Below are positions 422 to 52,524 of a DNA stretch of 64,000 nt, one piece after another. Positions within the stretch are counted from its first letter, which is position 1. The number at the start of each line of letters is the position of its first letter. The notes below the pieces were generated by a model. The model made no database searches, had not been told where the DNA came from, and worked only from the letters and a program-made list of their open reading frames with translations. This stretch comes from Escherichia phage vB_EcoM_ESCO47, in the sequence record OM386662.1. One strand, given 5' to 3'. The translations under genes were made by a program, and so were the position numbers.

Positions 422-1582
422 ATGAATACTTTTAAAATCGGAACGAATTTTGATTTAGCTCTTCTTGATAAAATCGTAGAGCTCAATAAAACTTATCCTA
501 ATAGCTTAATAAACGAAGTATACGGCTCTACAAGAGAAATGGCTTTTGTAGCAGCCAGACCTGATTTTAGGCTTCCTGACGTTGACAAAAAGATGTTAGA
601 AGATTACGTTAAACGTTGTAACGAATTAGGTATTTGCTTTAACTATACACTCAACACGATAAATCCTGGTTCAAAAAGAGAACTAGTTGAGTGGAAGAAG
701 AAAGCTATTCAGGATTATGTTCAGTATCTTTGGTCAATAGGCGTATGGCGTATTACTATCGCTAACCCTGTTGTTATGGAAATTGTTCGTGAAGTCAATA
801 AAGACATTGAGATTGAAGTTTCAACAATTCTACATGTCGATGCTGTAACTCAAATCAAATACTTGCATGACCAATATAATATTAAAAAGGTCTGTTGCGG
901 AATTCATAAGAACCGTTCAGTTTCTTTCCTGAAGCGTGCAGCAGAGTTTTGCAATAAGAACAATATAATATTTGAAGTTCTTGTAAATGAGTTCTGTTCT
1001 AATGCTGGTAAAGGGTATACAACACATTGTAGTTATCGTGACTCTTGCTATATTTTCCATAGTACTGATGTTACAGTTGATGATGCTAAATCCTTAAACG
1101 GATATCCAATGCAACACTGCATTAAAGCTCGTGATACAGACCCATTTAACTGGTTGAGAACTCGTTTTGTTCGTCCTCAAGATTTGAAACTTTATAATGA
1201 TATTGGTATCACTCAATTCAAAGTTTCAGGACGTACAGGTAGCACAGACTACATTTTGAAAGTTCTTGAAGCATACGCTTCTGAAAAGTTTGAAGGTAAT
1301 TTGTTAGAACTGTGGAAGCCTTTAGAGACTATTTTCACTCTTGAAAATGAAACTGAGTTTTCACATACAGTAAATATTGAAACCTCTTTGTTAGATGGCT
1401 TTTTAGAAAAAAGGTGGTTCAGACATCCAGATTTCGATTGTGCTAATGAAATCTGCGGGACGACGTGTACATATTGTGAAAGATATTATAAACGTCAATT
1501 ATCTAAAAACGGGTTATCAGAAAATTCTATATCTATTATTGATATAACTAACTCTGATGACGCTTTGAGGTACCCGGAATGA
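422..1582 (+). CDS. U32-family-like TIM-barrel protein with Cys-rich C-terminus (putative Fe-S enzyme)
   Basis: 386 aa; NYTLNTIN, VSTILH and FEVLVNEFC...HCSYRDSC segments resemble the peptidase-U32 core; C-terminal CANEICGTTCTYC (CX4CX3CX2C). Confidence 0.45.
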   Translation: MNTFKIGTNFDLALLDKIVELNKTYPNSLINEVYGSTREMAFVAARPDFRLPDVDKKMLEDYVKRCNELGICFNYTLNTINPGSKRELVEWKKKAIQDYVQYLWSIGVWRITIANPVVMEIVREVNKDIEIEVSTILHVDAVTQIKYLHDQYNIKKVCCGIHKNRSVSFLKRAAEFCNKNNIIFEVLVNEFCSNAGKGYTTHCSYRDSCYIFHSTDVTVDDAKSLNGYPMQHCIKARDTDPFNWLRTRFVRPQDLKLYNDIGITQFKVSGRTGSTDYILKVLEAYASEKFEGNLLELWKPLETIFTLENETEFSHTVNIETSLLDGFLEKRWFRHPDFDCANEICGTTCTYCERYYKRQLSKNGLSENSISIIDITNSDDALRYPE

Positions 1583-1818
1583 TTTCTAGAAAAACTTTTA
1601 ACCACCAACTTAATGAAGAGATTTTGACTATGAAAATTAACAGCATCGAACAAATTCTTAAAAAGGCCCTTATGGGCCTGTTTGAAACTAAAGCGGCTAA
1701 AGTGATTAAAGAACCTGTTCAACTAGAATATTACGCTGATGCATTTCTTCATAGTGTTCTTGGAAGTATCGATGCTGAAGCTTTACGTTATATCAACATC
1801 GCTAAGAAATTCAAATAA
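1579..1818 (+). CDS. hypothetical protein (79 aa)
   Basis: ATGA stop/start overlap with upstream gene; no motif recognised. Confidence 0.4.
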   Translation: MISRKTFNHQLNEEILTMKINSIEQILKKALMGLFETKAAKVIKEPVQLEYYADAFLHSVLGSIDAEALRYINIAKKFK

Positions 1819-1860
1819 GCTTTATGAATTGAGTATATAATAAATTGTATTGAGGTAAAC

Positions 1861-2577
1861 ATGGGAAAACATAACACAATGAAATATATCAAAGCCGCAG
1901 ATTTTCAAGCCGCATTTAAAGCAGTCAATCGTGAAATTTTAGAAAACCCGGAATTCGTAACTGATTCTCGTATTGGTCGTTGTAATGAAATTGGGTCTAT
2001 GACAGTAGTTGTTGACACTCCATCATCATTCAAAATGACCGACCCACGTATTAACCGCATCTCTTATGAATATGCCGAAGACTTCTGGAAATTTATGATT
2101 TCTGGTGGTACTGATGCAGAAGAAGCATTTAAGGCATATCCTAACGTTGCTAAATTTATTTCTAAACCAAAATCAGATGCTTTGCCTGCGAACTTCAACA
2201 CTTTCTATGGTCCTCGCATTGCGGCCCAATTACCAACTCTTCTAAAAGAACTTAAAGAGAAGCCTAACTCTCGAAGAGTTGTGTTCCAAATTCTAGAAAG
2301 TTCTGATCAGGCTTTGCTTGATTCGGACGAAACACTTGAATATCCATGTACTGACTCGGTGACTTATTATATTCGCGATGGTAAGCTTTATACCCACTGT
2401 CATATGCGTTCTCAGAACTGTGCTGTTGTTATGCAGTTGGATTTTTATCTCCAAGGAAAATTACTTCATTATATCGCTAACGAATGTGGTGTAGAAGTTG
2501 GTGATTATACTCATACCATGGTAAGTGCCCATGTGTTTGAACGTGATTTTGATTATGTTAAAGGATTCCTTGACTAA
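1861..2577 (+). CDS. 42: deoxycytidylate hydroxymethylase-like enzyme (thymidylate synthase fold)
   Basis: NSRR, YPCTDSVTYYIRDGKL (Cys nucleophile) and RSQN motifs align with the TS family; Asp at the position of TS Asn177; sits where T4 has gene 42, upstream of uvsX. Confidence 0.75.
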   Translation: MGKHNTMKYIKAADFQAAFKAVNREILENPEFVTDSRIGRCNEIGSMTVVVDTPSSFKMTDPRINRISYEYAEDFWKFMISGGTDAEEAFKAYPNVAKFISKPKSDALPANFNTFYGPRIAAQLPTLLKELKEKPNSRRVVFQILESSDQALLDSDETLEYPCTDSVTYYIRDGKLYTHCHMRSQNCAVVMQLDFYLQGKLLHYIANECGVEVGDYTHTMVSAHVFERDFDYVKGFLD

Positions 2578-3476
2578 TGGCTATTTTCCGCGTACCTATC
2601 TTGAGTATGCGGTCTTATGAAACCGGACAGTATGCTATCCTTAAGGATGGCAACTTCCAACTTCATTTGCACCGTGCTAATCCAGGTGATGTGATTACAT
2701 ATCCACGTAATGCATCTGATATTAAAGAATGTGAACGTCTTTTCCCAGAATTTAAGTTTGTTCCATTATGGTATAAAGATAACGCGTATAACACTCGTAA
2801 ATATTTCTGGTCTGAAAATGAATTTGTGGTTGATTCATTAATTGCTTATTATGATTGTGATTTTCTAATCACAGATATCACTGGATATGATGGTGTTTTT
2901 GATGTAGAATTCAATTTCAATATCACTGCAGACCCTAATAAACCACGTTTTTATATTGACGAATTCTTAAAAACCGATATGTTGTCGGTTAATCGTTCAC
3001 TTCAAACTACTGTGTTGAATGAACGTCAAAAAGAAGTGCTGGTTAACGCAGGTGCAGATGGTAATAAGATTATCGTAACGCAGAAAGTTATACGTCCTTC
3101 CATCATGCAGCGTCTTGTAGGTGATTTGGCTCCTATTCATCTAGATGGTATTTTTCATCCATTTCGAATTAGTGACCCGTGCTATCGTTTTGAACAAGTG
3201 GTTGAATGTGCAATTCAATTAGGCCAACCACTTTATATAACCGATCCAAATAATAGCTTCGACAGAAATAAGTATCCTGAAGAAGCGCTGATTCGAATTT
3301 TTAAACCAACTAAAACTGAGTACTATCAAATTCTTAAAGGACGTCCGAAGATTCAATATTTCGAAAATCCTGAAGAAGTATTCCATCCAGGTCTTGGTGA
3401 GTTCATCTACTTTAACGCTTTAATTTCTTCGCCGTATAATATACCTAAATATGAAGATGTCGTAATCGAGGAATAA
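2577..3476 (+). CDS. hypothetical protein (299 aa) in the slot T4 uses for beta-glucosyltransferase
   Basis: TAATG stop/start overlap with gene 42; no resemblance to T4 Bgt as I recall it; no motif recognised. Confidence 0.55.
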   Translation: MAIFRVPILSMRSYETGQYAILKDGNFQLHLHRANPGDVITYPRNASDIKECERLFPEFKFVPLWYKDNAYNTRKYFWSENEFVVDSLIAYYDCDFLITDITGYDGVFDVEFNFNITADPNKPRFYIDEFLKTDMLSVNRSLQTTVLNERQKEVLVNAGADGNKIIVTQKVIRPSIMQRLVGDLAPIHLDGIFHPFRISDPCYRFEQVVECAIQLGQPLYITDPNNSFDRNKYPEEALIRIFKPTKTEYYQILKGRPKIQYFENPEEVFHPGLGEFIYFNALISSPYNIPKYEDVVIEE

Positions 3477-3477
3477 A

Positions 3478-4026
3478 ATGGCTAAAATTATTTTAGTAGA
3501 TGGCCCAGATAATGCTGGTAAAACAACTTTCATTAATGACATAATGGAAATTAGTGAAAGATATGTAAAGATTGATTTCCCTAAACGAACTGTAGATGGA
3601 CGCTTTGATGTTAAGTCTCGAAATGAAGTAGGCTGTTTCGAAACAATGCTAAATTATTTAGACCCTACTAAGATTTATCTGTTAGACCGTGGATATATTA
3701 GTAACTGGGTTTACGGACGTATTCGACAAGATGCGGACTCGGTTCTTGACGTTTATGAACAGGATTATGTTCGTCTTTGCCAAAACCATGATGTGTTCAC
3801 AATTATTTTAACACGTAACGAAATGACTGAAAGTTTTGAAGACGACCTTATCACGTTGTCTGCTCATGGCTTTAATTTTGTTATCTCACTTTTTGAAGAG
3901 TTTGCTGCTCATAATGGAATACAATCTTATCAGTTATTAAACCATGATGGTGCTAACAAAGTTATAGGATTTAATGTAAGTGAACGCAATGCATTGATTG
4001 CAGAAATTATCAAATGGGCTCGTTAA
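3478..4026 (+). CDS. P-loop nucleotide/nucleoside kinase (thymidylate-kinase / deoxynucleoside-kinase-like)
   Basis: Walker A ILVDGPDNAGKTT at N-terminus; LLDRGYIS (DR motif) as in Tmk/dNK kinases; 182 aa. Confidence 0.6.
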   Translation: MAKIILVDGPDNAGKTTFINDIMEISERYVKIDFPKRTVDGRFDVKSRNEVGCFETMLNYLDPTKIYLLDRGYISNWVYGRIRQDADSVLDVYEQDYVRLCQNHDVFTIILTRNEMTESFEDDLITLSAHGFNFVISLFEEFAAHNGIQSYQLLNHDGANKVIGFNVSERNALIAEIIKWAR

Positions 4027-8486: not shown

Positions 8487-8780
8487 ATGAAAAAGTTATC
8501 ATTGGCAGCAATCTTACTTGCAGTATCATGCGCACCGGCTCCAGTTACGGCAGGTTATGATAAAGACCTCTGTGAGTGGTCAATGACTGCAAATCAAGAA
8601 GATGTTGAACAACAAATCTTCTCTGATATCATGAACATCACTAAACGAGACCGTCCTAATATGGTTAATAAAGTTGTTGAACAACTTAAGTCTGGCGGTA
8701 TCATGCAGTACAATTATGTTTTGTATTGTGACCCTAATTTTGATAACAAAGATATCGTAACCGAAATCACAGGTGAATAA
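8487..8780 (+). CDS. sp: spackle-like periplasmic protein (superinfection exclusion)
   Basis: 97 aa with signal peptide; GYDKDLCEWSMTA...QYNYVLYCD resembles T4 Sp as I recall it; adjacent to imm-like gene. Confidence 0.6.
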   Translation: MKKLSLAAILLAVSCAPAPVTAGYDKDLCEWSMTANQEDVEQQIFSDIMNITKRDRPNMVNKVVEQLKSGGIMQYNYVLYCDPNFDNKDIVTEITGE

Positions 8781-8781
8781 T

Positions 8782-9432
8782 ATGATTTATTATATGCACA
8801 AAAATGCGCCATTTAAATATGGTAAATTTCCTAATGCACAATGTTATAATATAACGCCGAATGAAAATAATAACGGATATCATCTCGGTGTAATTTTTGT
8901 AATTGTTAAAGATAACGAAATCGTCGCCTGGGCGGATTTTAAAGGTACAACATATGATGTTAATCCTGTGCCTTTCACATATTACAATATAACGGATTTG
9001 GCATATGATTATAATTGGTTTAATCATGACACGTTGGCTCATATTGAAGGTGTAGGATTTGACATCTCTTATTCTAGCTATTCATTATGTCCTATGAGCC
9101 GAGCTCACGGTAAAGATGCATCATATCTTTCAATTCGTAAACGTGTAAACTTCAAACGTAGTACAGATTATGTTGGTGGTCTCTTTGTTAAAGATAATAA
9201 AATAACCCGTATTAGTTATCCTTTAAGTGTAGGTCAAAAAGATGTTGATGTTGATTTAGACTTAACTGAAAATAACATTAATCGTATTGCTTCTGTATAT
9301 TTTGATATCGATGAAAAAATTGTAGTGTGTGGATACGAATTACCACCTGAAGAAAAGGCTGAAGCAATTGAAGTCGAATTAGAAATTTCTGTTGATGACC
9401 AAATATTTAATGCATTTATGAATCGAGGTTAA
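8782..9432 (+). CDS. hypothetical protein (216 aa)
   Basis: Listed ORF begins at GTG 8773; first ATG at 8782 follows GGTGA; no motif recognised. Confidence 0.5.
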   Translation: MIYYMHKNAPFKYGKFPNAQCYNITPNENNNGYHLGVIFVIVKDNEIVAWADFKGTTYDVNPVPFTYYNITDLAYDYNWFNHDTLAHIEGVGFDISYSSYSLCPMSRAHGKDASYLSIRKRVNFKRSTDYVGGLFVKDNKITRISYPLSVGQKDVDVDLDLTENNINRIASVYFDIDEKIVVCGYELPPEEKAEAIEVELEISVDDQIFNAFMNRG

Positions 9433-10157: not shown

Positions 10158-11180
10158 ATGGCTGAATGGATAGATAATGAATTTGCTTATCGTGCGTTTT
10201 CTCACCTACCTCGTTTTAGACAAATCAATAATTCAAGCACATTTAAATTAACATTTCGTTGTCCAGTTTGTGGCGACTCCCAGACAGATGCAATGAAAGC
10301 CCGCGGTTGGTATTATGGCGGTACTCCTGGCAATGTACATTGTTATAACTGTCAATATCATAATACAATTTCTGGATACTTAAAAGAGTATGATGAAGAG
10401 CTTTATCGCGAATATCTAATGGAAGTTCGTAAAGAAAAAGCTAGAATGGAACCAAAGATTGAAAAGTTTCCTGAAGCTAAGCCGGAACCAGAGAAAAAGA
10501 CTATAAATTCTTTGCCGTCTTGTTCTCGTCTGGACAAGTTGCCTGAAGAGCATCCTATTGTGAAATATGTTAAGTCTCGATGCATTCCTAAAGAATCATG
10601 GAATAGACTATGGTTCACATTAGAATGGCCTAAATTGGTCAACAAGATTCAACCAGGGACATACAAGAAAGAGATTCCTGAACCACGTTTAGTGATTCCT
10701 ATTTTTAATAAAGATGGGAAGGCCGAGTCATTCCAAGGACGTGCACTTCGTAAAGATGCTCCTCAGAAATATATCACTATTAAAGCGTTTGAGACGGCAA
10801 CGAAAATATACGGTGTTGAACGTGTTAAGGAAGGAGATGTCTGGGTAATGGAAGGTCCTATTGATAGTTTATTCATACCCAATTCAATAGCTATTACAGG
10901 CGGCTCGATAGATTTAGATATGGTACCATTTAAAGAACGTCGGGTATGGGTAATGGATAATGAACCTAGGCATCCGGATACTATAGCTCGTATGAAACGT
11001 TTGGTAGATGCAGGCGAACGTGTCATGTTCTGGGATAAAGCTCCATGGAGATCAAAGGATGTGAATGATATGGTAATGAAAGAAAATGCAACACCAAATG
11101 AAATCCTTGAATATATGAAACAGAATATTTCAAGTGGGTTGCATGCTAAAATGAGATTATCTAAATATTCTAAAATTTAG
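10158..11180 (+). CDS. 61: DNA primase gp61
   Basis: 340 aa; zinc-ribbon CPVCGDS...CYNC and near-colinear match to T4 gp61 as I recall it. Confidence 0.95.
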   Translation: MAEWIDNEFAYRAFSHLPRFRQINNSSTFKLTFRCPVCGDSQTDAMKARGWYYGGTPGNVHCYNCQYHNTISGYLKEYDEELYREYLMEVRKEKARMEPKIEKFPEAKPEPEKKTINSLPSCSRLDKLPEEHPIVKYVKSRCIPKESWNRLWFTLEWPKLVNKIQPGTYKKEIPEPRLVIPIFNKDGKAESFQGRALRKDAPQKYITIKAFETATKIYGVERVKEGDVWVMEGPIDSLFIPNSIAITGGSIDLDMVPFKERRVWVMDNEPRHPDTIARMKRLVDAGERVMFWDKAPWRSKDVNDMVMKENATPNEILEYMKQNISSGLHAKMRLSKYSKI

Positions 11181-11374
11181 ACCAATCCTACTAGTGCAAA
11201 AGCAATATCAACTACTGTGTCAAGAGGCACAGAAGGAACGATAATACCGTTAGCAACTAGCAATGGAGCAATACCGAAATTCCAAGAAATGATTCCACCA
11301 ATAACAACAGCGGCTAAAATCGTTTTCTTTTTATGTCCTTTGATAGCGGCGATTAACAACGGTAACTTAAGCAT
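11177..11374 (-). CDS. small membrane protein (65 aa), antisense to the early-gene flow
   Basis: Hydrophobic; GGAG 9 nt upstream of ATG; paralogous to the adjacent minus-strand ORF. Confidence 0.5.
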   Translation of the reverse strand: MLKLPLLIAAIKGHKKKTILAAVVIGGIISWNFGIAPLLVANGIIVPSVPLDTVVDIAFALVGLV

Positions 11375-11570
11375 GCAAATTAACTCCGATTGCTTTGATT
11401 ATTGAAAGTATATGCTGTAACTCCACTTGTGGTAATATAATAGCTTGAGTTGCGGCCAATGGAACTATTACTAGATTCCATACTAAAACGTCCACAGCAA
11501 GAAAAAAGAATATCAACTTACGTGATTCTTTATTTGTTAACTTCCAGATTTGATAGAACACAGTTCCCAT
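11367..11570 (-). CDS. small membrane protein (67 aa), antisense to the early-gene flow
   Basis: AGGAGG 4 nt upstream of ATG; overlaps downstream ORF by 8 nt; shared WN(F/L)xI(A/V)PL core with its neighbour. Confidence 0.5.
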   Translation of the reverse strand: MGTVFYQIWKLTNKESRKLIFFFLAVDVLVWNLVIVPLAATQAIILPQVELQHILSIIKAIGVNLHA

Positions 11571-12470: not shown

Positions 12471-12480
12471 GTTAATTATA

Positions 12481-12506
12481 AGGAATCCTTCGGGATTCCT
12501 TTTTTC
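12481..12506 (+). terminator. rho-independent terminator after soc
   Basis: AGGAATCC-TTCG-GGATTCCT then TTTTT. Confidence 0.7.
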
Positions 12507-12515
12507 GTTTCTACA

Positions 12516-12545
12516 GTTTACATCCTTGTAAAACAGTGTTATAGT
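12516..12545 (+). promoter_or_regulatory. early promoter-like element
   Basis: -35 GTTTAC 12516-12521, -10 TATAGT 12540-12545, then AGTCCTATCAA; ATG at 12574. Confidence 0.5.
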
Positions 12546-12573: not shown

Positions 12574-12789
12574 ATGTTAAATCGTTGGATTAAACCTAAT
12601 CAAACCTTAGATGAAGTTATTGCTCGTCAGGTTATACAGAAATATGATCTTCAACTATGGTATGCTGAAGTTGTTGTGCATTCATTCATGATGCATGCTG
12701 ATGGCTCAGTCGAATTTAATGCAGAAATCCGTAATGATTTTGAAGATGAAGGCCTGCCTAAAGTTGCATTTGTAAGAGGGTTCTTATAA
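12574..12789 (+). CDS. hypothetical protein (71 aa)
   Basis: Early promoter element and RBS upstream; no motif recognised. Confidence 0.45.
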   Translation: MLNRWIKPNQTLDEVIARQVIQKYDLQLWYAEVVVHSFMMHADGSVEFNAEIRNDFEDEGLPKVAFVRGFL

Positions 12790-13130
12790 TGTTTAAGTGG
12801 TTTAAAGAATTGTTTGCTTCCACCCCAGGACAAGGAATGGTTCCTATTGATACCCATGCACCTAAAAAAGAGTATATCTACGCGGGTGATGGTATGATGG
12901 AAGAAGTGGTTTGTCCGGCTGAAAAAGCAGATAATGTTGGACAGGTGGCATCTAGTTTAAACGCGTCAGAGTTAAAGTCTCAATTAGAAAAATTAAAAGA
13001 AGAACGTTCTCAAAGGCAAACATACATAGACGCTGCGGCAATAACGACAGTAGCTTCTGTAAGCTCATGGTCTGGGGATTCCTGTTCAAGTTCTTCTGAT
13101 TGTAGTTCAAGCTCTGGGAGCTGCGACTAA
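12789..13130 (+). CDS. hypothetical protein with Ser/Cys-rich C-terminal tail
   Basis: 113 aa; C-terminus SWSGDSCSSSSDCSSSSGSCD. Confidence 0.45.
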   Translation: MFKWFKELFASTPGQGMVPIDTHAPKKEYIYAGDGMMEEVVCPAEKADNVGQVASSLNASELKSQLEKLKEERSQRQTYIDAAAITTVASVSSWSGDSCSSSSDCSSSSGSCD

Positions 13131-13309
13131 TGAATAAAATTGTCAAGTGGTTTAAAAGTTGGAACGATGGTATTGAGCATAAAGACTGGCTTGATGTTCT
13201 TGATGAGAATTTATCTAAAGAGATTCAAGAACACGAAAAGAAGCAAGTTGAAGCCGAAGGTATCCGTCTTGTGAAACTTTATATGGGCGAACCTAGGAGA
13301 ACATTATGA
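13130..13309 (+). CDS. hypothetical small protein (59 aa)
   Basis: TAATG stop/start overlap with upstream ORF; below the ORF-track length cutoff. Confidence 0.3.
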
Positions 13310-13455
13310 CGTGTACCAAAGAAGCTGAAGCCAGAGCAAAGGAAGCTTTAGATTTGCTTCTCAAAATCGGTAGTAAAATGATGGAAGAGAACGAAAAATA
13401 CATCCAAGAAAATAAAACTCCGGATGGTCCATTAGTTGGTAAGAGGAAATCATAA
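13306..13455 (+). CDS. hypothetical small protein (49 aa)
   Basis: ATGA overlap with upstream ORF and ends exactly at the next ATG; below the ORF-track cutoff. Confidence 0.3.
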
Positions 13456-13853
13456 TGAAAGCTAATTTATACCACATACATATCGACGGTCAAAAATTCC
13501 CTATTGAAGTATTGATCCCTAGTGAGTGGTCAGCGTATAACACTGAAATGTACCGGCGCATTGAAGAACAGTTTTTAACGAGTATTTCTCCTAAAGGTTA
13601 CGAAGTAGAAATCCGACTGGCCGGTGAATTCCACTATGACCCATCTTCGCCATTTGACGTAAGTGAAATCATCATTAATAAAGGATTCGTTAGTCCTGGC
13701 AATAGTTCGTCTCTTTATGGTTACATAAACGATATCATTATCTGCGGAAATAAATTCAGTATATTCCATGAAGAAGACTTGAGAGAGTTCAAAAAGTTGG
13801 TATGGAACTACTTCGGTGAAACCGGGTTTAATTTTATTAAGGCGCCTAAATGA
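13455..13853 (+). CDS. hypothetical protein (132 aa), paralog of next gene
   Basis: Shares SSPFDVSEIIINKGFVSPGN-type block with the downstream ORF. Confidence 0.5.
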   Translation: MKANLYHIHIDGQKFPIEVLIPSEWSAYNTEMYRRIEEQFLTSISPKGYEVEIRLAGEFHYDPSSPFDVSEIIINKGFVSPGNSSSLYGYINDIIICGNKFSIFHEEDLREFKKLVWNYFGETGFNFIKAPK

Positions 13854-14332
13854 TGGCTAAAATACTCGAATTAGAATTTTATATTCGTGATAACCGTGGC
13901 CAAACTCGTCCTTATGATGACACAGTTTGCGTTATCTTAGTACCATCTGACACTAGTAACAGTTCATCTGAAAGCCTCGAAAAGGCTATTAATAGTATGG
14001 CTCTTCCTGAAAACGTTATGCTTAAAATAAAGCATAATAAAAATGTTGAGATGCAACCAGGTAGCCCATTTACAGTAGTAGAAGCATTGCTGATTAAAGG
14101 TTATAGTTATCCTAACAACAGATCAGAAGGCGAGAACTCTAAAGAAATTTTCTTTACAACTCCTGATAAAGACTGTCTCGAAGGACGAAGCTATCTTGTA
14201 GGAAGCACTTCTGACGTACTCGAAATCCAACGTCAGATCTGGACGCATTTTGATATCGGACTTCGCTTTACGTTAACAGAGTCAGCCCTTCTAGAACAAT
14301 CTCTTCGTCGACGCATGTACGGTGGTTTCTAA
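13850..14332 (+). CDS. hypothetical protein (160 aa), paralog of previous gene
   Basis: GSPFTVVEALLIKGYSYPNN block similar to the upstream ORF; ATGA overlap. Confidence 0.5.
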   Translation: MMAKILELEFYIRDNRGQTRPYDDTVCVILVPSDTSNSSSESLEKAINSMALPENVMLKIKHNKNVEMQPGSPFTVVEALLIKGYSYPNNRSEGENSKEIFFTTPDKDCLEGRSYLVGSTSDVLEIQRQIWTHFDIGLRFTLTESALLEQSLRRRMYGGF

Positions 14333-14511
14333 TGGATTTAATGAGCATGTTTGATGAGCCTGAAGTTGAGGCTCCTAAAGCACAACGTGGAGAACTCGTT
14401 GACGAACTGGACATTATTATACAGCGTCACGGGTTTAATCTTCCTATAGAAGTCCTGAAAGACCTAGCGTCTTACTACGATGATCCACCTCCTTGGGCCC
14501 CTTGGTCATAA
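14332..14511 (+). CDS. hypothetical small acidic protein (59 aa)
   Basis: TAATG overlap with upstream ORF; below the ORF-track cutoff. Confidence 0.3.
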   Translation: MDLMSMFDEPEVEAPKAQRGELVDELDIIIQRHGFNLPIEVLKDLASYYDDPPPWAPWS

Positions 14512-14654: not shown

Positions 14655-15266
14655 ATGTTTTTACCTTATAATGAATGTGAAATTGAAGAAATGGTTCGCC
14701 GAGCACAAGACCCTGTGTTCCAAGAAGACCTGCAATACAAAATTGATGAAGTGTTCAGTGATTCTGAGCAGAGCACTCTTTGGCAGTGCATGGAAAATAA
14801 ACCGGATTGCATTCAACAAGAGTTGGATTCAATCATTCGTAAAAATTGGTCATCTTCTGTGCCAACGGTCCTTTATCGTGGAATTTCTAAGAAAACTCTA
14901 AAAATGTTAGATTCTGTAGGATGTGTAGGAGCTACTATCAAGTTTGACCGAGTAATGAGCTTTAGTTCAGTATTTGGTGTAGCACGTAATTTTGCTTCAC
15001 ACAATTTTTATGGAACTAAACAAATATTCTGTGTTAAGAATGCTCCATTCGCTTTTAACTTCAGAGAAACAATGCTTGACATGATTTTGGCTGCGCCATC
15101 TTGCGAGTTCAGCGGAGCTTTCCCTGAAGCGACTAGACGGTCTAATGTTCGTTTAGTATCTGATGAGTGTGAATTTATGTTCCCGATCGGGACTACACTA
15201 CGTGTAGATTCTGTTACTGAAGAAGGAACTTATCGGATATGGAATCTGTCTATTATCGGTTACTGA
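14655..15266 (+). CDS. ADP-ribosyltransferase (ModA/ModB-like)
   Basis: R-S-ExE triad: YRG, FSS and ECEF motifs in correct order; position matches the T4 modA/modB locus between 56 and dda. Confidence 0.7.
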   Translation: MFLPYNECEIEEMVRRAQDPVFQEDLQYKIDEVFSDSEQSTLWQCMENKPDCIQQELDSIIRKNWSSSVPTVLYRGISKKTLKMLDSVGCVGATIKFDRVMSFSSVFGVARNFASHNFYGTKQIFCVKNAPFAFNFRETMLDMILAAPSCEFSGAFPEATRRSNVRLVSDECEFMFPIGTTLRVDSVTEEGTYRIWNLSIIGY

Positions 15267-22838: not shown

Positions 22839-23939
22839 ATGAAAGTTATGTTTATCCCATCTCGTGCAGTCCCATTTAATCCTGACCGTGTACAAGGTGG
22901 TCTTGAAGCGGTACATTTAAATGTGTTGAAATATTTAGTTTCTATCGGTGCCGATATTGATTATATCGGTTTTGATAACGACACATTTGGTGATTGGAAA
23001 GTTACACACCATCCTGTTGGCCATCTTACTAAATTCAGTCTAGGTATGAGTTATACTATGGCTCGTAAGATTGTTGAACTGGCCGGCATCCATGAATACG
23101 ATTTTGTTGTTACTATGGAACCGACTAAACTAACCGTTCAGGCAATTAAAGACGCAGGTCTCTCTAAAGTTCATAAGAATTTTATGGCAACACCATTTGA
23201 ACCTGTATCTCGTGGCATTGTTCAAATTTGGGACCAGACTATTCAAATTCATAAGAACGGTGGTAAGAGTTATGCTCCTACTAAAGCCTTCCGTGAATTT
23301 GAACGCAAATATTGTCATATGACTTCAGGTCTGACAGACAAAATTGATTATGATTATTGGCGAGCAAATCCGTTGTTTGAAGCCGAAGATTATCCGGTTA
23401 TTTGTTTGAATGAGAAACCTGAAGTTCTTCCAGCAACTGATCTGATTATTAGTGCACAACGTTATGACACTAAAATGCGTCGTACTGATGTTGCTCTTGA
23501 AGCGATTAAAGCGCTCGGCGAAAATGGTGCAGGATACTGTCCTAGTAAATGGGCACCACCGGCTAAGTATCCAGTAACTATTGATGCTCCACATAGTGAA
23601 ATCATGGAACGCCTTAAAACAGCTAAAGCACTTATCAATACGTGTCCTGACACCGGCACGGTAGAGAATAGTTCTATTGAAGCTATTTCTAAAGGTGTAC
23701 CTGTGATTCAGCTAGTCTTTAAAGATTATCCACATGCTACGTTTGAATATGACCCTGACACGGTACGTGTAGAGATTGATGCTTCCACCCCTAAGAAAGA
23801 AGTAGTTATGCTTTACACAAAAGCTGTATTAGAATTCACTGACACATACGAATCACGAGTCAAACGTGCAGAATATGTATGGCAAAAGTATAATCGGGAT
23901 GCAGTTGTAGCGATGTGGGATAAAATCTTCACAGCGTAA
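22839..23939 (+). CDS. GT-B fold glycosyltransferase (candidate DNA hmC glycosyltransferase)
   Basis: 366 aa; C-terminal TGTVENSSIEAISKGVPVIQ resembles the nucleotide-sugar binding motif of GT-B enzymes; T4 has no such gene between 39 and rIIA. Confidence 0.55.
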   Translation: MKVMFIPSRAVPFNPDRVQGGLEAVHLNVLKYLVSIGADIDYIGFDNDTFGDWKVTHHPVGHLTKFSLGMSYTMARKIVELAGIHEYDFVVTMEPTKLTVQAIKDAGLSKVHKNFMATPFEPVSRGIVQIWDQTIQIHKNGGKSYAPTKAFREFERKYCHMTSGLTDKIDYDYWRANPLFEAEDYPVICLNEKPEVLPATDLIISAQRYDTKMRRTDVALEAIKALGENGAGYCPSKWAPPAKYPVTIDAPHSEIMERLKTAKALINTCPDTGTVENSSIEAISKGVPVIQLVFKDYPHATFEYDPDTVRVEIDASTPKKEVVMLYTKAVLEFTDTYESRVKRAEYVWQKYNRDAVVAMWDKIFTA

Positions 23940-46769: not shown

Positions 46770-47678
46770 ATGTTTAAACGTAAATCTACTGCTGACCTCG
46801 CTGCTCAAATGGCTAAACTGAATGGTAATAAAGGTTTCTCTTCAGAAGATAAAGGCGAATGGAAGCTGAAGCTAGATGCATCAGGTAATGGTCAGGCGGT
46901 AATTCGTTTCTTGCCAGCAAAAACTGATGATGCACTACCATTTGCAATTCTTGTTAACCACGGTTTCAAGAAAAATGGTAAATGGTATATTGAAAATTGC
47001 TCTTCTACACATGGTGATTACGACTCTTGTCCTGTATGTCAGTACATTAGTAAAAATGACCTGTACAATACCAACAAAACCGAATATTCTCAACTGAAAC
47101 GTAAAACTTCTTATTGGGCTAATATTCTGGTTGTTAAAGACCCTCAAGCTCCAGATAACGAAGGTAAAGTATTTAAATATCGTTTCGGTAAAAAGATTTG
47201 GGACAAAATCAATGCAATGATTGCTGTTGATACCGAAATGGGTGAAACTCCGGTTGATGTTACTTGTCCTTGGGAAGGTGCTAACTTTGTTCTTAAAGCC
47301 AAGCAGGTTTCTGGTTTCAGTAACTACGATGAATCTAAATTCTTGGGTCAATCTGAAATTCCTCGTATTAACGACGAATCTTTCCAGAAAGAATTGTTTG
47401 ACCAGATGGAAGACCTGTCTGAAATGACTGCTAAAGACAAGTTCAAGTCCTTTGAAAAATTGACTGAATCTTTTGTTAAGGTTCTTGGTACTGCAGCAAT
47501 GGGTGGTGCAGCAGCTGCCGCAGCTAGTGTTGCAGATAAAGTTGCTTCTGATCTTGATGATTTTGATAAAGACATGGAAGCATTCAATACAACATCCACC
47601 AAATCCGCTGATGATTTCATGAGTTCTAGCACATCTTCTGATGATGGCGACCTCGATGACCTGTTAGCTGGTCTATAA
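46770..47678 (+). CDS. 32: single-stranded DNA-binding protein gp32
   Basis: 302 aa; zinc-site CxxC...C region and acidic C-terminal tail. Confidence 0.95.
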
Positions 47679-50268: not shown

Positions 50269-52524
50269 ATGCAAGTAACTAAGAGCAGTGGTGTATCCCA
50301 AAATTTTGATGCACAGAAAATTATTCAAGTCTTAACTTGGCAATGTGAAGGAACACAAATTGACCCATATGAATTGTACGAAGAAATTAAGACCCATCTT
50401 GTCGACGGGATGAGCACCAAAGATATCCAGAAGATTTGTATTAAAGTTGCAGCTAACTCGATTTCTGTCGAAGAACCTGATTATCAGTATGTCGCTGCCA
50501 AAGGGCTAATGTTTGCACTTCGTAAAGATGTATATGGGCAGTTTGAACCGCCTGCTTTTATCGACCATATTTCTTATTGTGTTAATGAAGGCAAATATGA
50601 TCCTGAGTTGTTGTCTAGATATTCTGCAGAAGAAATCATTTATCTTGATTCTCGGATTAAACATGAGCGAGATTTTGATCTGACTTATGCTGGTGCTATG
50701 CAGCTTAAAGAAAAATACCTGGTTAAAGATAAAACAACTGGTAAGATTTATGAAACTCCACAGTTTGCTATCATGGCTATCGGTATGGCCTTACATCAAG
50801 ACGAAACTCATGACCGTTTGAAACATATTATTCGTTTTTATGATGCCGTTTCTACTCATCAAGTTTCATTGCCTACTCCAATTATGGCAGGTGCTCGTAC
50901 TCCGACTAGACAGTTTTCCAGCTGTGTAGTTATTGAATCCGGTGATTCGTTGAAGTCTATTAACAAAACGTCAGCATCAATTATCGAATATATTTCCAAA
51001 CGAGCTGGTATTGGTATTAACGTTGGTATGCTTCGCGCTGAAGGTTCTAAAATTGGCATGGGTGAAGTGCGTCATACAGGTGTTATTCCGTTCTGGAAAC
51101 ATTTCCAAACAGCAGTAAAATCTTGTTCTCAAGGTGGTATTCGTGGTGGTGCTGCAACCGCATATTATCCGATGTGGCATTTGGAAGTAGAGAACCTGTT
51201 AGTTCTTAAAAATAACAAAGGTGTTGACGAAAACCGTATCCGTCATATGGACTATGGAATTCAGATTAATGACCTTATGATGGAACGCCTTGGTAAAAAT
51301 GATTATATTACTTTATTTAGCCCTCACGAAATGTCCGGCGAATTGTATTACTCGTTCTTTGAAGACCAAGATAAGTTCCGTGAGCTTTATGAAAAAGCAG
51401 AAAAAGACCCGGCAATCAGAAAGAAACGAATCAAAGCATTAGAACTTTTTGAATTGTTTATGACTGAACGTTCAGGTACTGCTCGAATTTATCCACAGTT
51501 TGTTGATAACACGAATAACTACACTCCGTTTATTCGTGAAAAAGCTCCAATTCGTCAGAGTAACTTATGTTGTGAAATCGCTATTCCGACTAATGATGTT
51601 AACAGTCCTGACGCTGAAATTGGTTTATGCACGTTATCTGCTTTTGTATTAGATAAATTTGATTGGCAAGACCAAGATAAAATTAATGAACTTGCTGAAG
51701 TACAAGTACGTGCACTTGATAACCTGTTAGACTATCAAGATTATCCGGTTCCAGAAGCTTTAAAAGCTAAAAAGCGTCGAAATCTCGGTGTCGGTGTTAC
51801 TAACTATGCAGCTTGGTTAGCTTCTAACTTTGCCTCATATGAAGATGCTAACGATTTGACCCACGAATTATTTGAGAGATTACAGTATGGACTCATTAAA
51901 GCTTCAATCAAGTTGGCCAAAGAAAAAGGACCTTGCGAGTATTATTCAGACACTAAATGGTCTCGAGGCGAATTACCTATCGACTGGTACAATAAAAAGA
52001 TTGACCAAATCGCAGCTCCAAAATACGTTTGTGACTGGTCGGGGCTACGTGAAGACCTTAAGCTCTTTGGCATTCGCAACAGCACATTATCAGCTCTTAT
52101 GCCATGTGAATCAAGCAGCCAGGTTTCCAACTCTACAAACGGTATCGAGCCTCCACGTGGTCCGGTAAGTATTAAAGAATCTAAAGAAGGTAATTTCCGC
52201 CAGGTAGTTCCTAATATCGAACACAACATTGGTCTTTATGACTACGCCTGGAAACTTGCTAAGAAAGGTAATAAACCTTATTTGACTCAAGTTGCTATTA
52301 TGTTGAAATGGGTATGTCAATCGGCTTCAGCCAATACGTACTACGACCCAGAGAATTACGAGAAAGGTAAAGTGCCAATGTCTGTAATGCTTGACGATTT
52401 GCTTTACTTCTGGTACTTCGGCGGTAAAAACCTCTACTATCATAATACTCGCGATGGTTCTGGTACTGACGACTATGAACTAGAAACTCCAAAAGTTGAT
52501 GATTGTTCAGCTTGTAAGCTTTAA
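50269..52524 (+). CDS. nrdA: ribonucleotide reductase class Ia large subunit
   Basis: 751 aa; N-terminal ATP-cone; catalytic core. Confidence 0.95.
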   Translation: MQVTKSSGVSQNFDAQKIIQVLTWQCEGTQIDPYELYEEIKTHLVDGMSTKDIQKICIKVAANSISVEEPDYQYVAAKGLMFALRKDVYGQFEPPAFIDHISYCVNEGKYDPELLSRYSAEEIIYLDSRIKHERDFDLTYAGAMQLKEKYLVKDKTTGKIYETPQFAIMAIGMALHQDETHDRLKHIIRFYDAVSTHQVSLPTPIMAGARTPTRQFSSCVVIESGDSLKSINKTSASIIEYISKRAGIGINVGMLRAEGSKIGMGEVRHTGVIPFWKHFQTAVKSCSQGGIRGGAATAYYPMWHLEVENLLVLKNNKGVDENRIRHMDYGIQINDLMMERLGKNDYITLFSPHEMSGELYYSFFEDQDKFRELYEKAEKDPAIRKKRIKALELFELFMTERSGTARIYPQFVDNTNNYTPFIREKAPIRQSNLCCEIAIPTNDVNSPDAEIGLCTLSAFVLDKFDWQDQDKINELAEVQVRALDNLLDYQDYPVPEALKAKKRRNLGVGVTNYAAWLASNFASYEDANDLTHELFERLQYGLIKASIKLAKEKGPCEYYSDTKWSRGELPIDWYNKKIDQIAAPKYVCDWSGLREDLKLFGIRNSTLSALMPCESSSQVSNSTNGIEPPRGPVSIKESKEGNFRQVVPNIEHNIGLYDYAWKLAKKGNKPYLTQVAIMLKWVCQSASANTYYDPENYEKGKVPMSVMLDDLLYFWYFGGKNLYYHNTRDGSGTDDYELETPKVDDCSACKL

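What the first reader, a model, noticed from the sequence alone, without database searches (positions are those of the whole stretch)
12789..13130. Protein ending in a 21-residue Ser/Cys-rich tail
The 113-aa product ends in SWSGDSCSSSSDCSSSSGSCD after an ordinary helical-looking region. Ser/Cys/Gly-rich C-terminal cores are typical of precursors of ribosomally made, post-translationally modified peptides (microcin B17-like) and of some metal-binding tails. No cyclodehydratase-like enzyme is apparent among the small ORFs that follow.
Basis: inference. Interest (0 to 1): 0.4.

Follow-up and report, generated by a model that had tools for sequence, protein, structure and literature searches.

The report
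T4 Mrh.1 orthologue, conserved Cys-Asp tail
The ORF is this T4-like phage's copy of the uncharacterised early gene mrh.1, and its Ser/Cys tail is a strongly conserved C-terminal motif (two cysteines, the last always next to the final residue) that also ends membrane-anchored proteins of unrelated phages, so it is probably a working thiol site and not an antibiotic-peptide precursor.

Summary
ORF 12789-13130 (+) encodes 113 aa ending SWSGDSCSSSSDCSSSSGSCD, by far the most Ser/Cys-rich stretch in the window (16 of 21 residues; next best 8).

It is the orthologue of phage T4 early gene mrh.1 (Pfam DUF7206, 94.9 bits against a 25.6 cut-off). It sits in the T4 gene order 56 - soc - mrh.2 - mrh.1 - srh - mrh paralogues, and its start overlaps the mrh.2 stop.

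The tail is the family hallmark. All 117 full-length members end [S/G/T]-C-[D/N/E]. 103 have exactly two Cys in the whole protein, both in the tail. Synonymous codons vary freely while the residues are kept.

The RiPP reading is not supported. None of the 37 ORFs scanned is a cyclodehydratase, lanthipeptide or radical-SAM enzyme. The protein also has conserved N-terminal motifs.

New here: the same tail ends non-DUF7206 phage proteins, three of them with N-terminal transmembrane anchors and a cytoplasmic tail (Klebsiella jumbo phages and two uncultured contigs).

Best guess, inferred only: a flexible dithiol/carboxylate metal or redox site held at the inner face of the membrane. Function is unknown; T4 mrh.1 is only "Semi-Fit" in a published knock-down screen.

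The parts
12480..12501 (+). Terminator-like hairpin followed by a T-run, just after soc. It marks the upstream edge of the small-gene block.
   Evidence: Consensus scan, 9-bp stem. A pattern match only.
12517..12545 (+). Sigma-70-type promoter-like site (TTTACA-17-TATAGT with an upstream TG), 29 nt before mrh.2. Candidate early promoter of the mrh.2-mrh.1-srh... block.
   Evidence: Best match in the region, 10 of 12. The total number of such sites equals the shuffled expectation, so the evidence is weak. T4 mrh.1 RNA is classed 'early' (PMC9697503 supplement).
12574..12789 (+). mrh.2 orthologue (71 aa). Its stop overlaps the mrh.1 start (TAATG).
   Evidence: phrog_1873, E 1.9e-31. 68% identical to T4 and JS98 Mrh.2. 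The overlap is also present in T4, JS98, Karamvirus KaAlpha and L012.
12789..13130 (+). mrh.1 orthologue (113 aa), DUF7206 family: the ORF of the finding.
   Evidence: PF23836, E 5.8e-27, 94.9 bits against a 25.6 cut-off, profile positions 1-107 of 107. phrog_2031. 100% identical to hypothetical protein ESCO47_00135 of Escherichia phage vB_EcoM_ESCO47. Same position as T4 and JS98 mrh.1.
12789..12818 (+). Residues 1-10 (MFKWFKELFA): conserved N-terminal amphipathic helix, a candidate membrane or partner docking element.
   Evidence: M1, K6 and F9 are kept in at least 90% of members. AlphaFold2 helix 2-8. Hydrophobic moment 0.57, 94.5th percentile of window 10-mers. The motif is shared with the Srh family (hhalign E 7e-5, probability 63%).
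12825..12848 (+). Residues 13-20 (PGQGMVPI): conserved Pro/Gly motif.
   Evidence: P13 is kept in at least 90% of members in alignment A3. P13, G14, G16, V18, P19 and I20 are invariant among the closer relatives.
12864..12914 (+). Residues 26-42 (KEYIYAGDGMMEEVVCP): beta-hairpin with a GDG turn, the most conserved core of the family.
   Evidence: Y31, G33, G35 and E38 are invariant in 32 representatives. AlphaFold2 strands 26-31 and 37-42, with the best local pLDDT of 66-79.
12963..13055 (+). Residues 59-89: variable helical spacer ending in a short aliphatic stretch (IDAAAITTVASV).
   Evidence: AlphaFold2 helix 59-89. This region is poorly conserved in length and sequence. It is JS98-like at the DNA level, whereas the 5' end of the gene is NC-G-like.
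13065..13127 (+). Residues 93-113 (SWSGDSCSSSSDCSSSSGSCD): the C-terminal Ser/Asp/Gly tail carrying the Cys pair. C105 and C112 are the family-wide pair, C99 is an extra Cys, and D113 is the terminal Asp.
   Evidence: C112 is invariant; C105, D106 and D113 are kept in at least 90% of members. 117 of 117 full-length members end [SGT]-C-[DNE]. Predicted disordered. Between orthologues with tails in register there are 5 synonymous and 0 non-synonymous changes in the last 10 codons.
13130..13309 (+). srh-like ORF (59 aa). Its start overlaps the mrh.1 stop (TAATG).
   Evidence: phrog_10443, E 9.5e-31. Weak BLASTP match to T4 Srh, E 0.002. Same position as JS98 and NC-G srh.
13455..14332 (+). Two tandem Mrh-family paralogues (13455-13853 and 13850-14332), chained to the preceding genes by 1- to 4-nt overlaps.
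   Evidence: PF24070 T4_MRH, E 2.4e-17 and 1.9e-33. phrog_1234.

Best explanation
SHOWN. ORF 12789-13130 is the orthologue of bacteriophage T4 early gene mrh.1 (family DUF7206), in a T4-type phage identical at this protein to Escherichia phage vB_EcoM_ESCO47. It is a small, largely non-globular protein built from short conserved elements. These are an N-terminal amphipathic helix, a PGxGxVPI motif, a beta-hairpin (EYxYxGDGxxEEV), a variable spacer, and a C-terminal module. The module is an aromatic anchor, then Ser/Tyr/Asp/Gly-rich sequence, then two cysteines 6-8 residues apart. Each Cys is usually followed by Asp, and the second Cys is the penultimate residue. The gene is translationally coupled to mrh.2 and belongs to a chain of overlapping small early genes. 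The same C-terminal module ends non-homologous phage proteins, three of which carry N-terminal transmembrane anchors that leave the tail in the cytoplasm. INFERRED. The tail works unmodified as a flexible two-thiol (plus carboxylate) ligand site. It either chelates a soft or borderline metal ion (Zn, Fe or Cu type), possibly on a host metalloprotein, or acts as a redox-active dithiol. It is held at the inner face of the cytoplasmic membrane by the N-terminal helix, where it acts on a host component early in infection. It is not a RiPP precursor. Confidence in the identity (Mrh.1 orthologue with a conserved functional tail) is about 0.95. Confidence in the thiol/metal-at-the-membrane mechanism is about 0.35-0.4.
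For: Identity: Pfam DUF7206 at 94.9 bits and phrog_2031. The gene lies in the same place as in T4, JS98 and NC-G. T4 Mrh.1 ends ...GDSCGSSCDSSCSSTSCD. Tail conservation: in 32 representatives at 50% identity, the only invariant residue of the C-terminal half is the penultimate Cys. In 117 full-length members the ending is [SGT]-C-D in 114, C-N in 2 and C-E in 1. 103 members have exactly two Cys in the whole protein, and 114 have exactly two in the last 25 residues. The spacing between the two Cys is 6-8 residues in 102 of 117. In the 32 representatives, the last 30 residues contain no Glu and a single Lys/Arg. Protein-level selection: in-register orthologue pairs differ by 5 synonymous and 0-1 non-synonymous changes over the last 10 codons. 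Flexibility: AlphaFold2 gives no compact fold (pTM 0.25) and a low-confidence tail. Modularity and location: exact DNA pattern scans found the same tail on L020 (130 aa, one TM), L060 (about 103 aa, one TM), Klebsiella phage Muenster gp172 / RaK2 (223 aa; the depositor notes 2 TMDs, N-in, C-in) and L067 (57 aa). hhalign of the DUF7206 profile against Muenster gp172 aligns only the tail, with probability 95.7% and E 1e-8. The single-TM proteins have 0 Lys/Arg before and 6 after the TM segment, which places the tail in the cytoplasm. The Mrh.1 N-terminus is an amphipathic helix. Biology: T4 mrh.1 RNA is early, and its knock-down is 'Semi-Fit' (fold change 0.79, P 0.069) in CRISPRi-ART (PMC11879866). 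An analogous flexible C-terminal Cys-pair arm in the same window is the NrdA end ...DDCSACKL. That the RNR pair is redox-active is established knowledge, not tested here.
Against: There is no direct evidence for metal binding or redox activity. Two thiols alone are fewer than in usual structural Zn or Fe-S sites, so dimerisation or a partner would be needed. No His is conserved. The internal Cys-Asp order is not strict: the window has S-D-C-S, and a few members lack Asp there. The amphipathic helix is only at the 94.5th percentile, and no membrane association has been shown. The helix motif is also shared with Srh, which could mean a protein partner rather than the membrane. Conservation of the very last residues fits a C-terminal docking motif equally well. 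The fitness effect in T4 is weak and could be polar on mrh. The non-DUF7206 tail proteins number only four architectures, three of them known from a single uncultured contig each.
Confidence: 0.4

Rival explanations
1. C-terminal docking, pseudo-substrate or degron motif. The free ...S-C-D-COOH end and the Ser/Tyr/Asp-rich stretch are read directly by a host protein such as a protease, chaperone, kinase or phosphatase. The cysteines serve as recognition side chains, with no metal or redox chemistry.
For: Strict conservation of the last two or three residues and of the distance to the C-terminus is typical of C-terminal recognition motifs. The neighbouring genes mrh and srh are linked to the heat-shock sigma factor: one search gives the record annotation, and PMC8076793 states that Mrh modulates sigma-32 phosphorylation. 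A Ser/Thr phosphatase gene follows the tail protein in phage Muenster. A J-domain-like protein lies two genes upstream in L060 (read from the sequence, not tested with a profile).
Against: A simple docking motif does not explain why exactly two Cys are kept at 6-8 residue spacing while nearly everything between them is free to be Ser or Gly. It also does not explain why Cys is otherwise avoided in the protein. Tyr is absent from the tail in this window and in T4. No cytoplasmic E. coli reader of a ...CD-COOH end is known to me (own knowledge).
Confidence: 0.22
2. Covalent carrier or acceptor. The cysteines, or the Ser/Asp residues around them, are modified enzymatically and transiently (persulfide, acyl thioester, ADP-ribose or RNA from the nearby ModA/ModB-type enzymes, or phosphate), and the modified tail is the active species.
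For: A flexible arm with a penultimate thiol resembles swinging-arm carriers (inference). An ADP-ribosyltransferase-position gene lies 1.5 kb downstream at 14655-15266, judged by its position relative to JS98 modB/modA. T4 Mrh.1 protein was not classified in a time-resolved proteome although its RNA was, which is compatible with modified or hard-to-detect peptides.
Against: The T4 Mod enzymes are known as Arg-specific (own knowledge). ORF 14655-15266 has no Pfam hit. The tail occurs in phages whose neighbourhoods show no such enzyme. Absence from proteomics is expected anyway for a protein whose tail has no Lys or Arg.
Confidence: 0.1
3. RiPP precursor. The tail is a core peptide converted into azoles, lanthionines or Cys-Asp thioethers by a host or unrecognised phage enzyme, and then released.
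For: The Ser/Cys/Gly-rich C-terminal composition resembles that of a core peptide. Cys is usually preceded by Ser. Cys-Asp thioether RiPPs exist (ranthipeptides such as freyrasin; own knowledge, a lead only).
Against: None of the 37 ORFs scanned against Pfam is a YcaO, E1-like, dehydrogenase, LanB/C/M or radical-SAM/SPASM protein, and these include nearly all ORFs of 250 aa or more. No such gene appears next to the orthologues in T4, JS98, NC-G, KaAlpha, L012 or L015. The family infects several genera with no shared RiPP machinery. The N-terminal half is the best conserved part and looks like a folded or binding element rather than a leader. There are no export or immunity genes. In the TM-anchored tail proteins the tail stays tethered in the cytoplasm.
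Confidence: 0.05
4. Functionless low-complexity extension, such as slippage-generated Ser-rich sequence or a spacer.
For: The composition is of low complexity and the length varies between members.
Against: The tail shows position-specific conservation across 117 proteins and several phage genera, heterogeneous Ser codons, and an excess of synonymous over non-synonymous change. It also recurs on unrelated proteins.
Confidence: 0.02

Closest known systems
Bacteriophage T4 Mrh.1 (T4p027, UniProt P20706) / Pfam DUF7206 (PF23836) / phrog_2031
   Same: A full-length profile match. The gene has the same position between mrh.2 and srh/mrh, the same N-terminal helix, PGxG motif and GDG hairpin, and the same C-terminal ...SCD end. 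T4 ends ...GDSCGSSCDSSCSSTSCD.
   Different: The window's copy has three tail Cys (most members have two, T4 has four). Its internal dyad is inverted (S-D-C-S instead of S-C-D-S). The usual Tyr is replaced by Cys, and the first Met of YMGDG by Ala. The gene is mosaic: NC-G-like at the 5' end, JS98-like in the middle, with tail codons of its own. No function is known for any member.
Tail-bearing membrane proteins of other phages (Klebsiella phage Muenster gp172 / RaK2-like Alcyoneusvirus; uncultured contigs L020, L060, L067)
   Same: The same C-terminal module (...SSSYDSGSCDSSSSSSCD...DYSSYSSCDS...SCD...SWVGSSDSSYTSDYSSCDS...SCD) after a spacer. hhalign against Muenster gp172 gives E 1e-8 for the tail. 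In Muenster gp172 the module is preceded by an aliphatic stretch like that of Mrh.1.
   Different: These proteins have no DUF7206 core (no GDG hairpin, no PGxG motif). Three of the four have one or two real transmembrane helices at the N-terminus in place of an amphipathic helix. Some carry extra Cys.
Microcin B17 precursor McbA and other linear azol(in)e-containing peptide precursors
   Same: A Gly/Ser/Cys-rich C-terminal region in a small protein.
   Different: No McbBCD-type synthetase (YcaO cyclodehydratase, E1-like partner, dehydrogenase) and no export or immunity genes nearby. Most members have only two Cys. Conservation centres on a penultimate Cys-Asp. The N-terminal region is conserved and structured.
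Flexible C-terminal Cys-pair arms of redox and metal enzymes (class Ia ribonucleotide reductase R1 tail, MerA C-terminal Cys pair, SlyD metal-binding tail). Own knowledge except for the NrdA sequence.
   Same: Two cysteines near the C-terminus on a disordered arm. The window's own NrdA ends ...DDCSACKL.
   Different: In those proteins the arm belongs to a large enzyme and the Cys spacing is shorter (CxxC, Cx4C or CC). Here the arm is the main feature of a ~110-aa protein, the spacing is 6-8, each Cys is followed by Asp, and the flanks are Ser-rich.
FeoB-associated Cys-rich membrane protein (PF12669)
   Same: The architecture of a small protein with a membrane anchor and a short Cys/Gly/Ser-rich C-terminal tail is analogous to the TM-anchored tail proteins.
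   Different: There is no significant sequence match. Only the T4 tail gives E 2.4, and the window's tail gives nothing.

Membership tests
DUF7206 / T4 Mrh.1 | Match to the Pfam PF23836 profile above the gathering score | tested here: met
   94.9 bits against a 25.6 cut-off, E 5.8e-27, covering profile positions 1-107 of 107. phrog_2031 at E 1.2e-23.
DUF7206 / T4 Mrh.1 | Position in the T4-type early region, directly after mrh.2 with start/stop overlap and before srh/mrh | tested here: met
   The window order is dCTPase 11644, soc 12219, mrh.2 12574, this ORF 12789, srh-like 13130, then Mrh paralogues. T4, JS98, NC-G and KaAlpha have the same order.
DUF7206 / T4 Mrh.1 | Family motifs: N-terminal M-x-x-W/F-h-K-x-h-F, the Y-x-G-D-G-x-x-E hairpin, and a C-terminal ...C-D end | tested here: met
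   All are present. Y31, G33, G35, E38 and C112 are the invariant columns of the 32-sequence alignment.
Linear azol(in)e peptide (microcin B17-like) precursor | Adjacent or co-encoded cyclodehydratase (YcaO with an E1-like partner) and dehydrogenase | tested here: not met
   Pfam and PHROG scans of the flanking ORFs, and Pfam scans of 37 ORFs across the 64-kb window, found only T4 replication, nucleotide-metabolism and Mrh/Soc families. The orthologue neighbourhoods show none either. The rest of the ESCO47 genome was not available.
Linear azol(in)e peptide (microcin B17-like) precursor | A disposable leader plus a core whose Cys/Ser/Thr are the conserved modification sites, with export or immunity genes | tested here: not met
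   The N-terminal half is the most conserved part. Most members have only two Cys. No transporter or immunity gene lies nearby.
Linear azol(in)e peptide (microcin B17-like) precursor | Heterocycles (-20 Da per azole) on the mature product | not testable with these tools
   This needs mass spectrometry of the protein from infected cells.
Lanthipeptide or radical-SAM thioether (ranthipeptide) precursor | LanB/LanC, LanM, LanKC/LanL or a radical-SAM/SPASM maturase encoded with the precursor | tested here: not met
   No such Pfam family was found in any scanned ORF of the window.
Metallothionein-like or classical metal-binding tails | Dense CxC/CxxC or His/Cys clusters, and metal binding shown | tested here: not met
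   The sequence criterion is not met: the typical member has two Cys, 6-8 residues apart, and no His. Metal binding itself cannot be tested here. Failing this test does not exclude a two-thiol metal site.
FeoB-associated Cys-rich membrane protein (PF12669) | Profile match plus an N-terminal TM helix | tested here: not met
   The window tail gives no hit and the T4 tail gives E 2.4. Mrh.1 has no TM segment: the maximum 19-residue Kyte-Doolittle mean is 0.69.

The most novel reading that the evidence does not exclude
The Ser-rich tail with two Cys-Asp dyads, the last at the extreme C-terminus, is a portable effector module used by several unrelated phage lineages: T4-like, RaK2-like jumbo, and Pseudomonas-phage-like contigs. 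It is always presented at the cytoplasmic face of the inner membrane, by an amphipathic helix or by transmembrane anchors. It would act by a mechanism not yet described for phage proteins. One example is a thiol-carboxylate 'plug' or metal-stripping arm aimed at a membrane-associated host metalloprotein such as the Zn protease FtsH or a metal transporter. Another is a membrane-tethered redox or metal sensor.
Probability: 0.25. Interest if true: 0.7.

Novelty: new member of a known kind. Interest (0 to 1): 0.42.

Why it matters
mrh.1 is one of the many T4 early genes that remain without a function, and T4 is the best-studied phage. A genome-wide knock-down screen flagged mrh.1 as one of only five "Semi-Fit" T4 genes of purely unknown function.

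This analysis gives a concrete handle for experiments. The protein's defining feature is a two-cysteine, Asp-flanked C-terminal motif that is essentially invariant. The motif also recurs on membrane-anchored proteins of unrelated phages. Simple tests follow directly: point mutants of two residues, metal analysis, intact-mass measurement and localisation.

The work also removes a tempting but unsupported annotation, RiPP or bacteriocin precursor, from T4-like genomes.

Tried and rejected
- **Sigma-32 mimicry by the N-terminal helix.** The neighbour Srh is annotated as a sigma-32 decoy. hhalign of the family against E. coli RpoH found nothing (probability 0.2%). Srh itself matches RpoH residues 201-225 only weakly.
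- **Structure-based annotation.** Two AlphaFold2 runs gave pLDDT 54 and 61 and pTM 0.22-0.25. Foldseek against the PDB gave only noise, best E 2.2. PDB sequence searches with the Mrh.1 profile, an Mrh paralogue and Mrh.2 found nothing meaningful.
- **Literature.** No paper in the library mentions mrh.1, DUF7206 or P20706 in its main text. The 'Y00G' protein that co-purified with an E. coli protein in PMC8076793 is a different, 80-aa ORF, not Mrh.1.
- **Tail-only profile searches.** Pfam and NCBIfam return only DUF7206, below threshold. The large protein search refuses queries under 40 aa.
- **Domain fusions.** None was found. All 112 hits of the profile search are 53-201 aa and carry only PF23836.
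- **DNA pattern scans.** My first scan had one N too many, so it was out of frame, and its single hit was noise. It was repeated correctly.
- **Tail in bacterial genomes and metagenomes.** The same pattern in 185,579 bacterial and archaeal genomes gave 34 hits, all short-frame noise. In JGI metagenomes it gave 71 hits, of which only one was real, a RaK2-like gene. I therefore found no host protein with this tail. The pattern fixes the TGT, TCN and TAA codons and the spacing, so this negative result is narrow.
- **Met-rich hairpin (GDGMMEE) as a Cu(I) site.** Dropped, because T4 has GDGTVEA at this position.
- **Relatives of L060 and L020.** No relatives exist among isolated phages, and L020's protein is a singleton.
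Full report
**1. Observation.** The ORF exists exactly as described: 12789-13130 (+), ATG start, 113 aa, ending SWSGDSCSSSSDCSSSSGSCD. A Shine-Dalgarno-like AAGAGGG precedes it. Its ATG overlaps the stop codon of the upstream ORF (TAATG), and its own stop overlaps the next ATG in the same way.

The tail is unique in the window. 16 of 21 residues are Ser or Cys, against at most 8 of 21 in any of the other 97 likely proteins. Given the window's Ser+Cys frequency of 7.6%, the binomial P is about 5e-13 per stretch. The Ser codons are heterogeneous (TCA, TCT, TCC, AGT, AGC, TCG in relatives), so this is not a nucleotide repeat.

**2. What it is.** The protein is 100% identical to hypothetical protein ESCO47_00135 of Escherichia phage vB_EcoM_ESCO47, on a 162-kb contig. 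The surrounding genes are those of a T4-type phage: primase gp61, dCTPase gp56, Soc, Dda, DexA, UvsX, gp41, topoisomerase, RNase H, gp32, Td, NrdAB, Pnk and MotA. The nearest isolate at this locus is the Dhakavirus NC-G.

The ORF matches Pfam DUF7206 over the whole profile (94.9 bits against a 25.6 cut-off) and phrog_2031. It occupies the position of mrh.1 in T4 and JS98, between mrh.2 and srh/mrh. The upstream 71-aa ORF is Mrh.2 (phrog_1873; 68% identity to T4 and JS98). The downstream ORFs are an Srh-like protein and two Mrh-family paralogues.

From 12574 to 14511, seven ORFs are chained by 1- or 4-nt overlaps. The chain follows a terminator-like hairpin after soc and a promoter-like site at 12517-12545 (pattern matches only). 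The mrh.2/mrh.1 overlap is kept in T4, JS98, the Karamvirus KaAlpha and an uncultured contig. In a more distant metagenomic phage the DUF7206 gene again overlaps a small upstream ORF, although homology of that ORF to Mrh.2 could not be shown.

**3. The tail is the family hallmark.** T4 Mrh.1 ends ...HVWAGDSCGSSCDSSCSSTSCD. JS98 ends ...SSWTGDSSYSDSGSCDSSSSSCD. An exhaustive HMMER search of 1.84 billion representative proteins found only 32 representatives, all 54-144 aa.

In their alignment the invariant residues are Y31, G33, G35 and E38 (a beta-hairpin with a GDG turn) and C112, the penultimate residue. M1, K6, F9, P13, E28, D34, V40, D101, S102, S104, C105, D106, S107 and D113 are kept in at least 90% of members.

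I pooled 125 family proteins:
- 117 are full length, and all of them end [S/G/T]-C-[D/N/E]: D in 114, N in 2, and E once (RB69).
- 103 have exactly two Cys in the whole protein, and 114 have exactly two in the last 25 residues.
- The two Cys are 6-8 residues apart in 102 of 117.
- The remaining eight proteins are truncated or frameshifted fragments.

In the 32 representatives, the linker between the two Cys is 55% Ser, 22% Gly and 13% Asp. The last 30 residues contain no Glu at all and a single Lys/Arg. In orthologues whose tails are in register, the last ten codons differ by 5 synonymous and 0-1 non-synonymous changes.

The window's copy is slightly atypical. It has three tail Cys, the internal dyad reads S-D-C-S rather than S-C-D-S, and the usual Tyr is replaced by Cys. 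The gene is also mosaic: its first ~120 nt resemble NC-G and VR5, its middle resembles JS98, and its tail codons are its own.

**4. Structure.** AlphaFold2 with 6 and then 32 sequences gives no compact fold (pLDDT 54 and 61; pTM 0.22 and 0.25). It does consistently predict a short N-terminal helix (2-8), a beta-hairpin (26-31/37-42, the best-scoring part), a long helix (59-89) and a low-confidence, unstructured tail. Fold and PDB searches are uninformative.

The N-terminal ten residues form an amphipathic helix with Lys on the polar face. The hydrophobic moment is 0.57 for the window's copy and 0.59 as the family median, which is the 94.5th percentile of window 10-mers. There is no transmembrane segment. 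The same N-terminal motif (W-h-K-x-W/L-F/L-x-x-P) occurs in the Srh family (hhalign E 7e-5, probability 63%). It is not derived from sigma-32.

**5. The RiPP reading.** I scanned 37 ORFs of the window against Pfam, including nearly all ORFs of 250 aa or more, all neighbours of the gene, and every large ORF that was not obviously a T4 protein. None is a YcaO, E1-like, LanB/C/M or radical-SAM/SPASM protein. The neighbourhoods of orthologues in six other phages show none either.

The tail occurs in T4 itself, for which no such enzyme is known (own knowledge). The conserved N-terminal half does not look like a leader peptide. Most members have only two Cys. I rate this reading at about 0.05. It can only be settled by mass spectrometry.

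**6. New finding: the tail is a module.** Exact DNA pattern scans for C-D-[S/T]-x(3-4)-S-C-D-stop in 2.9 million viral contigs returned DUF7206 genes, obvious noise, and four unrelated proteins whose sequence upstream of the pattern is also family-like:

| Protein | Contig | Length | N-terminus | C-terminal sequence |
|---|---|---|---|---|
| L020 6009-6401 (-) | 249 kb | 130 aa | one TM helix | ...DYSSYSSCDSCSDSSSPSCDSGGCSCD |
| L060 4634-4945 (+) | 73 kb | about 103 aa | one TM helix | ...SWVGSSDSSYTSDYSSCDSSSSSSSCDSSPSCSCD |
| L063 (Klebsiella jumbo phage RaK2) | 346 kb | frameshifted | see below | see below |
| L067 4783-4956 (-) | 140 kb | 57 aa | none | ...YDYTDYSGNDNSSCDSSSPSSCD |

- The RaK2 reading frame is broken. 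It is intact as gp172 of phage Muenster: 223 aa, annotated by the depositors as '2 TMDs; N-in, C-in', ending ...DSIDSTSIVPGVAAAVITTQILTESSSVDSSSSYDSGSCDSSSSSSCD.
- The L067 contig is distantly related to Pseudomonas phages.
- hhalign of the DUF7206 profile against Muenster gp172 aligns only the tail, with probability 95.7% and E 1e-8. L020 aligns over its last ten residues. Neither has the DUF7206 core.
- The single-TM proteins have no Lys/Arg before the TM helix and six in the 15 residues after it, so by the positive-inside rule the tail is cytoplasmic.
- The same pattern found nothing real in 185,579 bacterial and archaeal genomes. In JGI metagenomes it found only one RaK2-like copy. This negative is narrow because the pattern fixes the codons.

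**7. Mechanism.** The following is shown: an early, conserved, translationally coupled small protein whose one invariant C-terminal feature is a penultimate Cys, paired with a second Cys on a flexible Ser/Gly/Asp arm. The same arm is attached in other phages to membrane anchors facing the cytoplasm.

The following is inferred. The two thiols act together, probably with the adjacent carboxylates and the free C-terminus. They would work either as a bidentate ligand for a metal ion, their own or that of a host metalloprotein, or as a redox-active dithiol. They would be held at the inner face of the membrane by the N-terminal amphipathic helix. I give this about 0.35-0.4.

The main rival, at about 0.22, is a C-terminal docking or pseudo-substrate motif with no metal or redox chemistry. 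Several associations are suggestive but unproven. The neighbours are sigma-32-related (mrh, srh). A Ser/Thr phosphatase gene follows the tail protein in Muenster. A J-domain-like protein lies near it in L060. A covalent-carrier role gets about 0.1, a RiPP core about 0.05, and a meaningless low-complexity tail about 0.02.

**8. What is known.** I found no published function. In T4, mrh.1 RNA is early and the protein was not classified in a time-resolved proteome (PMC9697503 supplement). In the CRISPRi-ART screen mrh.1 scored 'Semi-Fit' (fold change 0.79, P 0.069). It was named among five semi-fit T4 genes of purely unknown function, while mrh.2, mrh and srh were 'Not Fit' (PMC11879866 supplement). 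A polar effect on mrh cannot be excluded.

**9. Verdict.** The feature is real and is an ordinary member of a catalogued family of unknown function, T4 Mrh.1/DUF7206. The RiPP interpretation is not supported. Three results add interest: the near-absolute conservation of a two-Cys, C-terminal Cys-Asp motif; its recurrence as a module on membrane-anchored proteins of unrelated phages; and a measurable, if weak, fitness role in T4. I rate interest at 0.42 and novelty as a new member of a known kind.

Noticed in passing
window 12795-12806 and 13145-13156: The 12-mer AAGTGGTTTAAA (encoding K-W-F-K) occurs at the start of both mrh.1 and the next gene (srh-like). Profile comparison shows that the Mrh.1 and Srh families share their N-terminal ~12 residues (hhalign E 7e-5, probability 63%). 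One Mrh.1-family member (P0033, MKMNPLPWIKSWFETKP) has nearly the N-terminus of an Srh-like ORF in L012 (MKLNPLPWIKNWLSEP). This may be a shared docking helix.
   Followed up: partly
window 12789-13130 compared with L002 (NC-G), L001 (JS98) and L005 (VR5): mrh.1 is mosaic. The megablast match to NC-G (96%) stops at about window 12907, inside the gene just after the GDG hairpin. The middle of the gene resembles JS98. NC-G and JS98 share an identical 3' end despite having different 5' ends. This suggests recombination breakpoints inside this small gene.
   Followed up: partly
L063 2028-2703 (Klebsiella phage RaK2, record about 293.4-294.1 kb) compared with L071 1579-2250 (phage Muenster gp172): The RaK2 sequence splits the tail-bearing membrane protein into two reading frames: a 98-aa TM ORF, then a frame with no start codon. 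The gene is intact (223 aa) in phage Muenster. This is either a frameshift or a sequencing error in RaK2.
   Followed up: partly
L009 about 3009-3240; proteins P0022, P0027, P0029, P0106, P0116: A few natural mrh.1 copies are frameshifted or truncated and lack the tail. Examples are P0027, which continues out of frame, P0022, which has a different 73-aa end, and L009, which is split across two frames. They may be pseudogenes or assembly errors.
   Followed up: no
window 422-4026: There is a block that I do not recall from T4 (own knowledge). It holds a Peptidase_U32-family protein (422-1582, E 6e-11), a thymidylate-synthase-fold protein that is probably dCMP-hydroxymethylase-like (1861-2577), a 299-aa ORF with no Pfam hit (2577-3476), and a 182-aa ORF beginning MAKIILVDGPDNAGKTT, a P-loop-like sequence (3478-4026). 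This may be nucleotide or DNA-modification chemistry.
   Followed up: no
window 58829-59821: A DAHP_synth_1 family protein (KdsA/DAHP-synthase-like, E 1.2e-75) is encoded in a T4-type phage. A 366-aa ORF with no Pfam hit also lies at 22839-23939, next to the topoisomerase gene. Either could relate to sugar metabolism for DNA hypermodification.
   Followed up: no
window 8773-9432: This ORF is a full-length match to AdfA, the anti-DarT factor A (PF23813, E 3.4e-118), a known anti-defence gene.
   Followed up: no
window 11177-11374 and 11367-11570 (- strand): Two adjacent small hydrophobic ORFs (65 and 67 aa) lie on the opposite strand between primase and dCTPase. They have similar sequences (...IAPLLVANGIIVPSVPLD... 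and ...VIVPLAATQAIILPQVELQ...). They look like a tandem pair of small membrane proteins. NC-G annotates one such minus-strand ORF here.
   Followed up: no
window 50269-52524 and 46770-47678: NrdA ends ...DDCSACKL, the classical flexible C-terminal Cys pair of class Ia ribonucleotide reductases. gp32 ends with a Ser/Asp-rich acidic tail (...[18 protein letters not shown]). These are two other functional low-complexity C-terminal tails in the same window.
   Followed up: no
L071 2313-3059; L067 2978-3856; L060 2974-3579: The genes near the non-DUF7206 tail proteins include an annotated Ser/Thr phosphatase (Muenster), an ORF with metallophosphoesterase-like motifs (L067) and an ORF with a J-domain-like HPD motif (L060). 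The last two were read from the sequence only and were not profile-tested. The association may be coincidental.
   Followed up: no
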